Assembly (NCBI RefSeq): GCF_013315695.1
Contig: NZ_CP054353.1
Source of the DNA: Escherichia coli
Lineage (GTDB): Bacteria > Pseudomonadota > Gammaproteobacteria > Enterobacterales > Enterobacteriaceae
DNA length: 64,000 bases
Strand: one strand, 5' to 3'
Below are positions 6,934 through 10,092 of this stretch, one piece after another. A model generated the notes under the pieces. That model worked only from the letters and a program-made list of their open reading frames with translations, had not been told where the DNA came from and searched no databases. Every line of letters begins with the position of its first letter. The stretch's first letter is position 1. A program made the translations under genes and the position numbers.

Positions 6934-8034
6934 ATGTCAAATGCTCAAGAGGCGGTAAAAACCCGCCACAAGGAGACTTCGCTTATTTTCCCGGTTCTGG
7001 CGCTGGTAGTGCTGTTCCTGTGGGGAAGCAGCCAGACACTACCAGTGGTCATTGCCATCAATCTTCTTGCTCTAATTGGTATTTTAAGTAGCGCCTTTAG
7101 TGTTGTCCGTCATGCGGACGTATTAGCCCATCGCCTGGGAGAACCTTACGGTTCGCTTATTCTTAGCCTTTCAGTGGTTATTCTTGAAGTCAGTTTGATT
7201 TCAGCTTTAATGGCAACCGGCGACGCCGCGCCAACGCTAATGCGTGATACGCTCTATTCAATCATTATGATTGTTACCGGTGGGCTGGTTGGCTTTTCAT
7301 TATTGTTGGGCGGACGCAAGTTTGCCACCCAATATATGAATCTGTTTGGTATCAAGCAGTATTTAATTGCGCTGTTCCCCCTGGCGATAATCGTACTGGT
7401 ATTTCCAATGGCTCTGCCTGCGGCGAATTTTTCAACCGGTCAGGCGTTACTGGTAGCATTAATTTCTGCGGCAATGTATGGCGTATTTTTGCTGATCCAG
7501 ACCAAAACGCATCAAAGTTTGTTTGTCTACGAGCACGAAGATGACAGTGATGATGACGACCCGCACCACGGTAAACCGTCTGCCCATAGCAGCCTGTGGC
7601 ATGCTATCTGGTTGATTATCCATCTGATTGCCGTTATTGCAGTCACCAAAATGAACGCCAGCCCGCTGGAGACATTGCTCGACAGCATGAATGCCCCTGT
7701 CGCCTTTACTGGCTTCCTGGTGGCTCTGTTGATTCTGTCGCCGGAAGGTTTAGGTGCGTTAAAAGCAGTGTTGAACAACCAGGTCCAGCGCGCGATGAAT
7801 CTGTTCTTTGGTTCAGTGTTAGCAACCATTTCGCTTACCGTACCTGTCGTCACGCTAATTGCCTTTATGACGGGTAACGAATTGCAGTTTGCACTTGGTG
7901 CGCCAGAAATGGTGGTGATGGTGGCCTCTTTAGTGCTGTGCCATATCTCCTTCTCCACCGGACGTACTAACGTGCTCAATGGCGCAGCGCATCTGGCACT
8001 GTTTGCCGCCTATTTGATGACGATATTTGCCTGA
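6934..8034 (+). CDS. chaA: Ca2+/H+ (Na+/H+) antiporter ChaA
   Basis: 366 aa from ATG 6934 (MSNAQEAVKTRH...), polytopic membrane protein with acidic loop EDDSDDDDPHH; upstream extension in track rejected. Confidence 0.9.
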   Translation: MSNAQEAVKTRHKETSLIFPVLALVVLFLWGSSQTLPVVIAINLLALIGILSSAFSVVRHADVLAHRLGEPYGSLILSLSVVILEVSLISALMATGDAAPTLMRDTLYSIIMIVTGGLVGFSLLLGGRKFATQYMNLFGIKQYLIALFPLAIIVLVFPMALPAANFSTGQALLVALISAAMYGVFLLIQTKTHQSLFVYEHEDDSDDDDPHHGKPSAHSSLWHAIWLIIHLIAVIAVTKMNASPLETLLDSMNAPVAFTGFLVALLILSPEGLGALKAVLNNQVQRAMNLFFGSVLATISLTVPVVTLIAFMTGNELQFALGAPEMVVMVASLVLCHISFSTGRTNVLNGAAHLALFAAYLMTIFA

Positions 8035-8324
8035 CAGTTATATCTCCTCCGATGACGAAAATCGGGGGAGATAATATAAATTCCTGCTTATTGTATTTCT
8101 TCATACTACCTGAACAGGTCGTTAATCAGAATTGCGAGCCTGTACCAGAACCTGCACGAAACCACTGCAACAGCTGTTGAAAAGCCGGAATGTACTCTTT
8201 ATTGCAAACATTTCAGGGATGAAGTGAAGATGAATTGAGACGTAGTATCCACACCAAGCCGGCGTTATCCGGTGAGGCGCAATGTTGCGGGGGCTTTATC
8301 CCTGGTGGCATTGGTTGCTGGAAA

Positions 8325-8390
8325 GAGAAAACCCCCGCACGTTGAGAGGTACAACCTGACAACAGAACGGGGGCTAATCTTGAACCACAA
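8325..8390 (-). ncRNA. rdl: Putative Rdl antisense RNA (type I antitoxin), copy 1
   Basis: Minus-strand sigma70-like promoter (TTGTAA-17-TATTCT) followed ~66 nt later by CCCCCG/CGGGGG hairpin plus U-run; lies antisense to the ldr 5' leader. Ends approximate. Confidence 0.5.
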
Positions 8391-8438
8391 CAATTCAAGA
8401 ATAGCCGCAAAATGTTGTCCTTACAACAAGGCGGCTAT

Positions 8439-8546
8439 ATGACGCTCGCGCAGTTTGCCATGATTTTCTGGCACGATCTGGCAGCACCGATCCTGGCGGG
8501 AATTATTACCGCAGTGATTGTCAGCTGGTGGCGTAACCGGAAGTAA
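8439..8546 (+). CDS. ldr: Ldr type I toxin peptide (35 aa), copy 1
   Basis: Translates to MTLAQFAMIFWHDLAAPILAGIITAVIVSWWRNRK, matching the Ldr toxin family; too short for the ORF track. Confidence 0.85.
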   Translation: MTLAQFAMIFWHDLAAPILAGIITAVIVSWWRNRK

Positions 8547-8593
8547 GGTGAAAACGGGCGTCAGGCTGCCGTGATGGCAATATGCGCCCGAAA

Positions 8594-8633
8594 CCGGCCG
8601 CAGGGGTAACAGCCTGCGGCCCTTTTTGTCTTT
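8594..8633 (+). terminator. Intrinsic terminator of ldr copy 1
   Basis: GC stem CCGGCCGCAGG/CCTGCGGCC followed by CTTTTTGTCTTT. Confidence 0.7.
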
Positions 8634-8859
8634 ATCTCTTCTGCAAGTAAATATTGGCAACCCGAGCTGGAAGCATCATCCAGAGCACTCATGAAACGAC
8701 TGTAACAGCTGTTGAAAAACCGGAATGCACTCTTCATTGCAAACATTTCAGGGATGAAGTGAAGATGAATTGAGACGTAGTATCCACACCAAGCCGGCGT
8801 TATCCGGTGAGGCGCAATGTTGCGGGGGCTTTATCCCTGGTGGCATTGGTTGCTGGAAA

Positions 8860-8925
8860 GAGAAAACCCCCGCACGTTGAGAGGTACAACCTGACAACAG
8901 AACGGGGGCTAATCTTGAACCACAA
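8860..8925 (-). ncRNA. rdl: Putative Rdl antisense RNA, copy 2
   Basis: Same promoter/terminator architecture as copy 1 at +535 bp. Confidence 0.5.
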
Positions 8926-8973
8926 CAATTCAAGAATAGCCGCAAAATGTTGTCCTTACAACAAGGCGGCTAT

Positions 8974-9081
8974 ATGACGCTCGCGCAGTTTGCCATGATT
9001 TTCTGGCACGATCTGGCAGCACCGATCCTGGCGGGAATTATTACCGCAGTGATTGTCAGCTGGTGGCGTAACCGGAAGTAA
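8974..9081 (+). CDS. ldr: Ldr type I toxin peptide (35 aa), copy 2
   Basis: Identical 35-aa ORF to copy 1. Confidence 0.85.
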   Translation: MTLAQFAMIFWHDLAAPILAGIITAVIVSWWRNRK

Positions 9082-9128
9082 GGTGAAAACGGGCGTCAGG
9101 CTGCCGTGATGGCAATATGCGCCCGAAA

Positions 9129-9163
9129 CCGGCCGCAGGGGTAATAGCCTGCGGCCTTTTTTG
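9129..9163 (+). terminator. Intrinsic terminator of ldr copy 2
   Basis: Same GC hairpin plus T-run as copy 1. Confidence 0.7.
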
Positions 9164-9228
9164 TATCCGGCCCCATGAAAAAAGTCTTAACGCAGAACGC
9201 TAAGACTTTATTTTTCAAGCAAAAAAGA

Positions 9229-10092
<864 letters not shown>

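What the first reader, a model, noticed from the sequence alone, without database searches (positions are those of the whole stretch)
8161..9165. Two tandem ldr/rdl type I toxin-antitoxin repeat units between chaA and kdsA
Two ~535-bp-period direct repeats each encode the identical 35-aa toxin MTLAQFAMIFWHDLAAPILAGIITAVIVSWWRNRK with its own terminator. Each also carries an antisense promoter plus terminator module upstream of the toxin ORF, consistent with a ~66-nt Rdl antitoxin RNA. I recall K-12 having three tandem copies here, so the copy number differs and suggests unequal recombination. Toxin ORFs are under 60 aa and absent from the ORF track.
Basis: partly seen in the sequence, partly recalled or inferred. 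Interest (0 to 1): 0.55.

Follow-up and report, generated by a model that had tools for sequence, protein, structure and literature searches.

The report
Two-copy ldr/rdl toxin-antitoxin array
This is the well-known E. coli Ldr/Rdl small-toxin and antisense-RNA locus between chaA and kdsA, present here as the common two-copy version, so it is ordinary apart from a very recent copy-to-copy sequence homogenisation.

Summary
Two direct repeats with a 535-bp period (8161-9165) each carry three elements:
- an identical 35-aa Ldr toxin ORF (8439-8546, 8974-9081; Pfam Ldr_toxin E 2.9e-24)
- a terminator
- an antisense 66-nt Rdl gene (8326-8391, 8861-8926, minus strand; Rfam rdlD 85.9 bits, gathering score 50)

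This is the LDR-A/B/C locus of E. coli, a described type I toxin-antitoxin family. K-12 does have three copies here, but two copies is not unusual. About 25% of 5,426 complete E. coli genomes carry one unit, about 30% two and about 45% three.

The one specific event I found is a recent gene conversion. The window differs from its closest genome (MSB1_4I) at 11 sites in 50 kb. Six of these lie within 8352-8501, and each makes unit 1 identical to unit 2.

In 45 units from five genera, the toxin, Rdl, both promoters' -10 hexamers and a closed mRNA fold are conserved. In that fold the 3' UTR pairs with the ribosome-binding region. No leader ORF is conserved as a peptide.

Verdict: already known, low interest.

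The parts
8161..8630 (.). LDR unit 1 (first copy of the ~535-bp long direct repeat)
   Evidence: period 535; 8 mismatches to unit 2 over 8161-8630; 409 bp perfectly identical (8201-8609)
8696..9165 (.). LDR unit 2 (second copy)
   Evidence: identical to unit 2 of MSB1_4I
8243..8248 (+). Predicted -10 hexamer TAGTAT of the ldr-1 promoter (unit 2 equivalent: 8778-8783). Inferred, not mapped.
   Evidence: cross-genus conservation begins sharply here (TAGnAT conserved). It places a start near 8255 and gives a ~372-nt mRNA. No conserved -35, and no hit in the consensus scans.
8255..8628 (+). Predicted ldr-1 mRNA: 184-nt 5' UTR, CDS and 3' UTR (unit 2 equivalent: 8790-9163)
   Evidence: conserved block 8241-8628; fold z-score -5.5; consensus structure 98.1% paired across 45 units
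8282..8359 (+). Upstream ORF in the 5' UTR (25 aa, MLRGLYPWWHWLLERENPRTLRGTT), a possible leader-ORF candidate. Its start codon lies inside the 5' hairpin (unit 2 equivalent: 8817-8894).
   Evidence: the start is ATG or GTG in 42 of 45 units, but the peptide shows W<->R and Y<->D changes and a variable stop
8326..8391 (-). rdl-1 antitoxin RNA gene (66 nt), fully complementary to the ldr-1 5' UTR. Its 5' end lies 47 nt upstream of the toxin ATG.
   Evidence: RF01813, 85.9 bits, gathering score 50; hairpin -26.7 kcal/mol, z -4.75; 65 of 66 identical to K-12 rdlC
8398..8426 (-). Rdl-1 promoter: -35 TTGTAA (8426-8421), 17-nt spacer, -10 TATTCT (8403-8398) (unit 2 equivalent: 8933-8961)
   Evidence: both hexamers conserved across genera
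8439..8546 (+). ldr-1 toxin CDS, 35 aa, with SD-like GGCGG at 8431-8435
   Evidence: Pfam PF13940 E 2.9e-24; 34 of 35 identical to K-12 LdrA/LdrC (A26V)
8557..8588 (+). Conserved 3' UTR segments predicted to pair with the start region (8441-8446), the SD (8431-8435), 8414-8422 and the 5' end (8276-8280) (unit 2 equivalent: 9092-9123)
   Evidence: helices 1, 7, 8, 9: 96-100% of cells paired; 3 pairs with compensatory changes
8596..8627 (+). ldr-1 intrinsic terminator (9-bp GC-rich stem plus T-run)
   Evidence: helix 13
8861..8926 (-). rdl-2 antitoxin RNA gene, identical in sequence to rdl-1
8974..9081 (+). ldr-2 toxin CDS, identical to ldr-1
9131..9162 (+). ldr-2 intrinsic terminator
8352..8501 (.). 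Minimal gene-conversion tract in unit 1 (maximal extent 8201-8609). It covers most of rdl-1 and the 5' half of ldr-1.
   Evidence: 6 of the 11 differences from MSB1_4I in 50 kb lie here, and all convert unit 1 to the unit 2 sequence. MSB1_4I, AF3 and MS 21-1 share the unconverted state.

Best explanation
The region holds two tandem, intact copies of the E. coli long-direct-repeat (LDR) type I toxin-antitoxin module at the chaA-kdsA locus. This is the two-copy allele of the array that is ldrA/B/C in K-12.

Each unit makes a structured mRNA of about 370 nt, predicted to span about 8255-8628 and about 8790-9163. The mRNA encodes a 35-aa inner-membrane toxin. By homology with LdrA and LdrD, overproducing the toxin collapses ATP and arrests growth.

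From the opposite strand each unit makes a 66-nt Rdl RNA. Rdl is perfectly complementary to the 5' UTR; its 5' end lies 47 nt upstream of the start codon. Rdl keeps the toxin untranslated. Because the two Rdl RNAs here are identical, each can act on either mRNA.

My reading of how repression works is inferred, not shown. The full-length mRNA sits in a closed fold. A 5'-3' helix and 3' UTR segments pair with the ribosome-binding and start region. Rdl pairing in the 5' UTR, together with RNase III cleavage of the duplex, prevents the rearrangement or upstream translation needed to open that site.

Copy number at this locus varies across the species through recombination between the repeats. In this genome, unit 1 was recently overwritten by unit 2 across 150-409 bp by gene conversion.
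For: Shown here:
- Repeat anatomy and identical toxin ORFs.
- Pfam Ldr_toxin match over the full length, E 2.9e-24.
- Rfam rdlD at 85.9 bits (gathering score 50) antisense to each 5' UTR.
- Rdl hairpin fold with z -4.75, terminators and an Rdl promoter 7 nt before the RNA 5' end.
- Same locus and annotation in complete E. coli genomes with 1, 2 or 3 Ldr genes.
- At least two tandem units in 4,085 of 5,426 genomes.
- Conversion tract: 6 of 11 differences in 50 kb lie within 150 bp, all towards unit 2, P about 1e-10.
- Toxin plus Rdl co-conserved in Citrobacter, Kluyvera, Pseudocitrobacter, Salmonella and other Escherichia: 21 rdlD hits beside the 21 ldr ORFs of the 18 loci scanned.
- The conserved block 8241-8628 has a 5' UTR more conserved than the CDS.
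- Consensus mRNA fold is 98.1% paired against 39-50% for slid partners, with 13 compensatory pairs against 5.8 in shuffles, 0 of 500 shuffles reaching the observed value.

From the literature:
- LdrD and LdrA are toxic, and Rdl represses translation (PMC4147584, PMC8309996, PMC12643268).
- An rdlD-ldrD duplex cleaved by RNase III is seen in vivo (PMC7373196).
Against: No expression data exist for this genome, so transcript ends are predictions. The ldr promoter has only a conserved -10 and no recognisable -35. The A26V toxin variant has not been tested for toxicity. The structure was derived from the same alignment used to test it. Many of its pairs are invariant, so covariation support is modest. 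How Rdl blocks translation is unresolved in the literature (PMC8309996). The published hypothesis, coupling to a leader ORF called ldrX, is neither confirmed nor excluded here. The six-site homogenisation could be a read-mapping or polishing artefact in a repeat rather than a biological conversion.
Confidence: 0.93

Rival explanations
1. Assembly artefact. Either the true array has three or more units and was collapsed to two, or the perfect 409-bp identity was created by repeat mis-mapping during consensus polishing.
For: The identical tract (409 bp) is longer than typical short reads. No complete genome in the collection has exactly this sequence; the best match is 99.6%. Repeats are where such errors occur.
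Against: Three independent complete genomes of the same lineage (MSB1_4I, AF3, MS 21-1) have exactly two units with identical flanks and junction. About 30% of complete genomes have two units. The unit-specific flank differences at 8163-8200 and 8610-8630 are retained, which a simple collapse would tend to blur. Copy-number collapse is therefore very unlikely. A polishing artefact for the six sites cannot be excluded.
Confidence: 0.08
2. Rdl represses Ldr through a leader ORF, the ldrX model analogous to mok in hok/sok. In this model ldr translation depends on translation of an upstream ORF, and Rdl blocks that ORF. The model is about mechanism and does not dispute what the locus is.
For: A uORF with an SD-like GGTGAGG and an ATG at 8282 is present, and its 3' third lies in the Rdl target. 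The start is ATG or GTG in 42 of 45 cross-genus units. In the window, a frame open from 8239 ends in a TGA that overlaps the toxin ATG. The model was proposed in the literature (PMC4147584, PMC8167048).
Against: The TGA-overlap frame is open for only 3-13 codons and has no start codon in most units. A 1-nt indel changes its frame relative to the toxin in ldrD. The 8282 uORF shows radical substitutions (W<->R, Y<->D) and a stop position that varies from 14 to more than 50 codons. Three units have lost the start codon yet keep the base pair at that position. The uORF start is itself buried in a conserved hairpin. The nucleotide-level conservation fits RNA structure better than a peptide. Translation of the region, as opposed to the peptide's identity, could still matter.
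Confidence: 0.3
3. One or both units are decaying relics that no longer make an active toxin or antitoxin.
For: Chromosomal type I loci are sometimes degenerate. One cross-genus homolog (L042, Pseudocitrobacter vendiensis) has a premature stop in the toxin. The A26V change is untested.
Against: Both units have an intact ORF, SD, terminators, a full-length Rdl match and the conserved promoter hexamers. Position 26 lies in the hydrophobic helix, and the cross-genus homologs carry A, L, M or V there.
Confidence: 0.04

Closest known systems
E. coli K-12 LDR-A/B/C (ldrA-rdlA, ldrB-rdlB, ldrC-rdlC) between chaA and kdsA
   Same: Same locus and flanking genes, same ~535-bp unit, and same order of elements. 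The toxin is 34 of 35 identical to LdrA/LdrC. Rdl is 65 of 66 identical to RdlC.
   Different: Two units instead of three. The toxin carries A26V. The two units are identical over 409 bp, whereas K-12 units differ from each other at 11-21 sites.
ldrD-rdlD (the experimentally characterised paralog between yhjV and bcsG)
   Same: Same architecture. The 5' UTR (about 8262-8345), the SD/start region and the 3' UTR blocks are almost identical, and Rdl is 56 of 66 identical.
   Different: The toxin is only 20 of 35 identical. A 1-nt indel upstream of the ATG changes the frame relationship of the upstream ORFs. ldrD has an ATG inside the Rdl loop region that the window units lack.
hok/sok (with mok) of plasmid R1 and its chromosomal homologs
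   Same: A small membrane toxin, a stable and highly structured mRNA with a long 5' UTR, and a short unstable antisense RNA that does not cover the toxin's ribosome-binding site. A 5'-3' fold-back helix is predicted. There is a sub-threshold Rfam 'sok' hit on the ldr 5' UTR (29.3 bits, gathering score 59).
   Different: The toxin family is different (Ldr/Fst, not Hok). No conserved overlapping leader ORF equivalent to mok was found. Activation by 3' processing has not been shown for ldr.
Fst/RNAI-RNAII (par of pAD1), the same toxin superfamily according to Fozo et al. 2010 (PMC2887945)
   Same: A short toxin with one transmembrane helix, a conserved tryptophan and a charged C-terminus.
   Different: In Fst loci the antisense RNA is encoded opposite the 3' end of the toxin gene. 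Here it lies opposite the 5' UTR (PMC2887945).

Membership tests
Ldr/Rdl (LDR) type I toxin-antitoxin | 35-aa toxin matching the Ldr toxin profile | tested here: met
   Pfam PF13940 Ldr_toxin, residues 1-35 on model positions 1-35, E 2.9e-24. NCBIfam has no matching model. RefSeq annotates the identical protein WP_000170956.1 as an Ldr family toxin.
Ldr/Rdl (LDR) type I toxin-antitoxin | Hydrophobic helix followed by a conserved Trp and a basic C-terminal cluster | tested here: met
   Read directly from the sequence ...AAPILAGIITAVIVSWWRNRK. The same pattern holds in all cross-genus homologs. Signature as described in PMC2887945.
Ldr/Rdl (LDR) type I toxin-antitoxin | Cis-encoded ~66-nt antisense RNA opposite the toxin 5' UTR, not covering the RBS | tested here: met
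   RF01813 at 85.9 bits (gathering score 50), full model, at 8326-8391 and 8861-8926 on the minus strand. The 5' end lies 47 nt upstream of each ATG. The hairpin fold has z -4.75.
Ldr/Rdl (LDR) type I toxin-antitoxin | Own promoter and intrinsic terminator for the antisense RNA and for the toxin mRNA | tested here: inconclusive
   Terminators are clear. The Rdl promoter scores 8 of 12, is correctly placed and is conserved. The ldr promoter has only a conserved -10, TAGnAT, and no -35. None of these were mapped experimentally.
Ldr/Rdl (LDR) type I toxin-antitoxin | Long direct repeat of about 500-535 bp at the chaA-kdsA locus | tested here: met
   Period 535. Synteny with K-12 and 5,387 other genomes.
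Ldr/Rdl (LDR) type I toxin-antitoxin | The toxin kills or arrests cells when overproduced, and the cognate Rdl relieves this | not testable with these tools
   Known for LdrD and LdrA (PMC4147584, PMC8309996, PMC12643268). The A26V variant here is untested.
hok/sok-type regulation (how it works, not family membership) | Overlapping leader ORF, like mok, whose translation is required for toxin translation and is the antisense target | tested here: not met
   No leader ORF is conserved in frame, length or peptide across 45 units. A role for translation through the 8282 uORF is not excluded.
hok/sok-type regulation (how it works, not family membership) | Closed full-length mRNA with 5'-3' fold-back and a sequestered ribosome-binding site | tested here: inconclusive
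   Predicted in the single sequence (z -5.5) and in the 45-unit consensus. It passes the shuffle and slide controls. Many pairs are invariant, and the structure was derived from the alignment used to test it.

The most novel reading that the evidence does not exclude
Across Enterobacteriaceae, ldr mRNAs share a closed architecture. A 5'-3' helix (8276-8280 with 8584-8588) closes the molecule. Conserved 3' UTR segments (8557-8581) pair with the Shine-Dalgarno sequence, the start region and the sequence just upstream of them. No leader peptide is conserved. If this is real, Rdl would act on an RNA-structure switch, with RNase III cleavage, and not through the long-cited ldrX coupling. That would give concrete, testable elements for a mechanism that reviews still call unknown. 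Separately, the six-site tract would be a directly observed, very recent gene-conversion event between tandem toxin-antitoxin units within one clonal lineage.
Probability: 0.4. Interest if true: 0.35.

Novelty: already known. Interest (0 to 1): 0.12.

Why it matters
The locus itself adds nothing new. It is a textbook chromosomal type I toxin-antitoxin array in a common copy-number state, and RefSeq already annotates the identical toxin protein. The side results have modest value. They show that copy number at this locus is a three-state polymorphism across E. coli, so K-12 should not be treated as the reference state. They catch a fresh gene-conversion event between units, which is how such arrays stay homogeneous. 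The cross-genus comparison also gives specific mutagenesis targets for the unresolved question of how Rdl blocks Ldr translation.

Tried and rejected
- NCBIfam search with the 35-aa and 44-aa forms found no family. Pfam gave the match instead.
- The strict promoter scan found nothing in 8000-9260. A relaxed scan found the Rdl promoter but no convincing ldr -35.
- The 44-aa N-terminally extended Ldr starting at ATG 8412 was rejected, because that ATG is not conserved across genera and is ACG in ldrD.
- The long frame ending in a TGA that overlaps the toxin ATG was rejected as a conserved leader ORF. The overlap follows automatically from Met-Thr (ATGAC), and the frame is closed within 3-13 codons in most units.
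- I could not obtain the papers with the original definitions: the Kawano 2012 review and the Fozo 2008 review are not held, and I did not try to retrieve Kawano 2002 or Gerdes & Wagner 2007. The published ldrX coordinates and mapped transcript ends are therefore not verified here.
- A literature search for LDR copy-number variation found only an incidental mention. The mobilome preprint attributes its ldr signal to RNA heteroduplexes, not to excised circles.
- Four of the 44 pattern hits (Rothia, Nonomuraea, Sulfopaludibacter and a proteobacterial MAG) are chance matches with no Ldr ORF.

Full report
**Observation**

The region contains two direct repeats with a start-to-start spacing of 535 bp. 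Before about 8161 the two copies are only 43% identical, which is unrelated sequence. From 8161 to 8630 they differ at 8 positions, all at the edges, and 8201-8609 is perfectly identical to 8736-9144, a stretch of 409 bp.

Each copy has a 108-nt ORF (8439-8546, 8974-9081) that translates to MTLAQFAMIFWHDLAAPILAGIITAVIVSWWRNRK. A GC-rich hairpin with a T-run follows each ORF (8596-8621, 9131-9156).

**Identity**

- The peptide matches Pfam Ldr_toxin (PF13940) end to end, E 2.9e-24. NCBIfam has no model for it.
- Rfam's rdlD model (RF01813) matches the minus strand at 8326-8391 and 8861-8926. The score is 85.9 bits against a gathering score of 50, over the full model.
- The 66-nt RNA folds into the expected long hairpin with a U-tail (-26.7 kcal/mol, z -4.75).
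- A TTGTAA-17-TATTCT promoter-like site on the minus strand (8426-8398) ends 7 nt before the RNA's 5' end. It scores 8 of 12, just below the threshold of the standard scan, which found nothing.
- Rdl is complementary to the toxin 5' UTR, and its 5' end lies 47 nt upstream of the start codon. It does not cover the ribosome-binding site, as described for the family (PMC4147584).

**Context and comparison with K-12**

The window is E. coli core chromosome (narK, narXL, ychO, chaCBA, the two ldr units, kdsA, sirB, prfA, hemA and onward). It is 99.978% identical to strain MSB1_4I over 50 kb.

RefSeq annotates the same locus in that strain as two Ldr family toxins with the identical protein WP_000170956.1.

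The window toxin is 34 of 35 identical to LdrA/LdrC (A26V), 32 of 35 to LdrB and 20 of 35 to LdrD. Its Rdl is 65 of 66 identical to RdlC.

**Copy number**

Genomes with one unit (AH21E028), two units (MSB1_4I, AF3, MS 21-1, O157:H7) and three units (K-12, O111:H8) all exist at chaA-kdsA.

A query spanning the unit-to-unit junction is covered at 80% or more in 4,085 of 5,426 complete genomes. About 75% therefore have at least two tandem units. Two evenly spaced samples of the hit ranking give approximately:

| Units at chaA-kdsA | Share of complete genomes |
|---|---|
| one | ~25% |
| two | ~30% |
| three | ~45% |

Two copies is therefore a common allele. Three complete genomes of the same lineage share it with identical junctions, which makes assembly collapse very unlikely.

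Tandem arrays of two or three units also occur in other species:
- at chaA-kdsA in E. whittamii and a Pseudocitrobacter MAG
- at the ldrD locus (yhjV-bcsG) in another Escherichia species representative and in Escherichia sp. E1V33
- next to bcsG in Kluyvera sichuanensis

Repeated gain and loss by recombination between units is thus a property of the family.

**A recent gene conversion**

The window and MSB1_4I differ at only 11 sites in 50 kb. Six of these lie within 150 bp of unit 1: 8352, an indel at 8387/8388, 8420, 8477, 8483 and 8501. At each one the window's unit 1 carries the unit 2 base. The chance that 6 of 11 differences fall in a given 409-bp tract is about 1e-10.

MSB1_4I, AF3 and MS 21-1 share the other state. 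The extra T is also present in the single unit of AH21E028. The window's state is therefore the derived one.

This is the signature of non-reciprocal transfer from unit 2 to unit 1 over 150-409 bp. The tract covers most of rdl-1 and the 5' half of ldr-1. The three CDS changes are synonymous, because the relatives encode the same protein in both units. A polishing artefact in the repeat cannot be excluded without the reads.

**Mechanism: what is shown and what is inferred**

From the literature:
- LdrA and LdrD are single-helix inner-membrane peptides. Induction causes an ATP drop within minutes, nucleoid condensation and growth arrest (PMC8309996, PMC12643268).
- Rdl represses translation (PMC4147584).
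- An rdlD-ldrD duplex trimmed by RNase III is detectable in vivo (PMC7373196).
- How Rdl blocks translation is stated to be unknown (PMC8309996).
- The standing hypothesis is coupling to a leader ORF, ldrX (PMC4147584, PMC8167048).

To examine this, I scanned the species-representative genomes for the FWHDLAAP core. I then extracted 45 distinct units from Escherichia, Citrobacter, Kluyvera, Pseudocitrobacter and Salmonella.
- Every ldr ORF in the 18 loci scanned has an rdlD match above the gathering score on the opposite strand, 21 in all.
- Conservation begins sharply at a TAGnAT hexamer (8243-8248) and ends after the terminator (about 8628). This predicts an mRNA of about 372 nt.
- The 5' UTR (8269-8348) is 0.89-0.97 conserved, more than the CDS at 0.69-0.87.

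The leader-ORF candidates do not behave like conserved coding sequence:
- The frame that ends in a TGA overlapping the toxin ATG is long in this window, but it is open for only 3-13 codons in most units. In ldrD a 1-nt indel puts the long upstream frame in frame with the toxin.
- The in-frame ATG at 8412 is not conserved.
- The ATG-initiated uORF at 8282 is widespread. However, it shows W<->R and Y<->D changes and a stop that ranges from 14 to more than 50 codons. Three units have lost the start while keeping the base pair at that position.

The consensus fold has these features:
- a 5'-3' helix (8276-8280 with 8584-8588)
- a 5' hairpin (8281-8343) that contains the uORF start
- three helices that pair 8414-8422, the SD GGCGG (8431-8435) and 8441-8446 with 3' UTR segments at 8557-8581
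- the terminator

Across the 45 units, 98.1% of cells are paired, against 39-50% with slid partners. Thirteen pairs show compensatory changes, against 5.8 ± 1.6 in shuffles, and 0 of 500 shuffles reach the observed value. The single-sequence fold agrees (z -5.5).

Two caveats apply. The structure was derived from the alignment used to test it, and many of its pairs never vary.

My reading is a closed, translationally inert mRNA, as in hok. Rdl pairing in the 5' UTR would prevent it from opening. This part is inference.

**Verdict**

The finding is real and correctly interpreted, but it is an already known system in a common configuration. The new items are a recent conversion tract, a rough copy-number distribution and comparative evidence that favours an RNA-structure mechanism over a conserved leader peptide. 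All are minor, and the last may already be covered in papers I could not access.

Noticed in passing
window 8289-8441 and 8824-8976 (+): Sub-threshold Rfam match of the 'sok antitoxin (CssrC)' model RF01794 to the sense strand of the ldr 5' UTR, ending at the toxin AUG (29.3 bits, gathering score 59, E 9e-4 in a 5.5-kb search). It may reflect a hok-like architecture in the ldr leader, or it may be chance.
   Followed up: partly
window 52933-53011 (-): Full-length match to the C0299 sRNA family (RF00119, 107.7 bits, gathering score 40), the only other Rfam hit above threshold in the window.
   Followed up: no
window ~27537-29236 and 29552-30249: treA appears truncated: its ORF ends at 29111, and treA is annotated as frameshifted in the near-identical MSB1_4I, which has no sequence difference from the window in this stretch. 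An IS1A-like element lies immediately downstream (ORFs 29552-29827 and 29746-30249). Beyond it is an iron ABC transporter, TonB-dependent receptor and ModD cluster.
   Followed up: partly
chaA-kdsA locus in other E. coli genomes (H2, H4, H9): Some genomes carry an IS200C transposase inserted within the ldr array between chaA and kdsA.
   Followed up: no
L012 7977-8835; L044 3708-4565; L048 6602-8004: The ldrD-type locus next to bcsG is itself tandemly duplicated in two Escherichia species representatives (spacing 484 and 483 bp) and triplicated in Kluyvera sichuanensis. Tandem amplification is therefore recurrent at both ldr loci and across genera.
   Followed up: partly
L042 1443-1550: The Pseudocitrobacter vendiensis Ldr homolog has a premature stop (…IVGW*RNRK). 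It is probably an inactivated toxin, although its flanking RNA elements remain alignable.
   Followed up: no
L052 (503-bp contig labelled Bacillus sp., coverage 0.66): It carries an E. coli-type ldrD-like ORF (MPFAELGMAFWHDLAAPVIAGILASMIVNWLNKRK). This is almost certainly enterobacterial contamination in a Bacillus assembly.
   Followed up: no
E. coli plasmid records: Of the places matching the ldr region, 20-29 are on records classed as plasmids. I did not check whether these are real plasmid-borne ldr copies or misassigned replicons.
   Followed up: no
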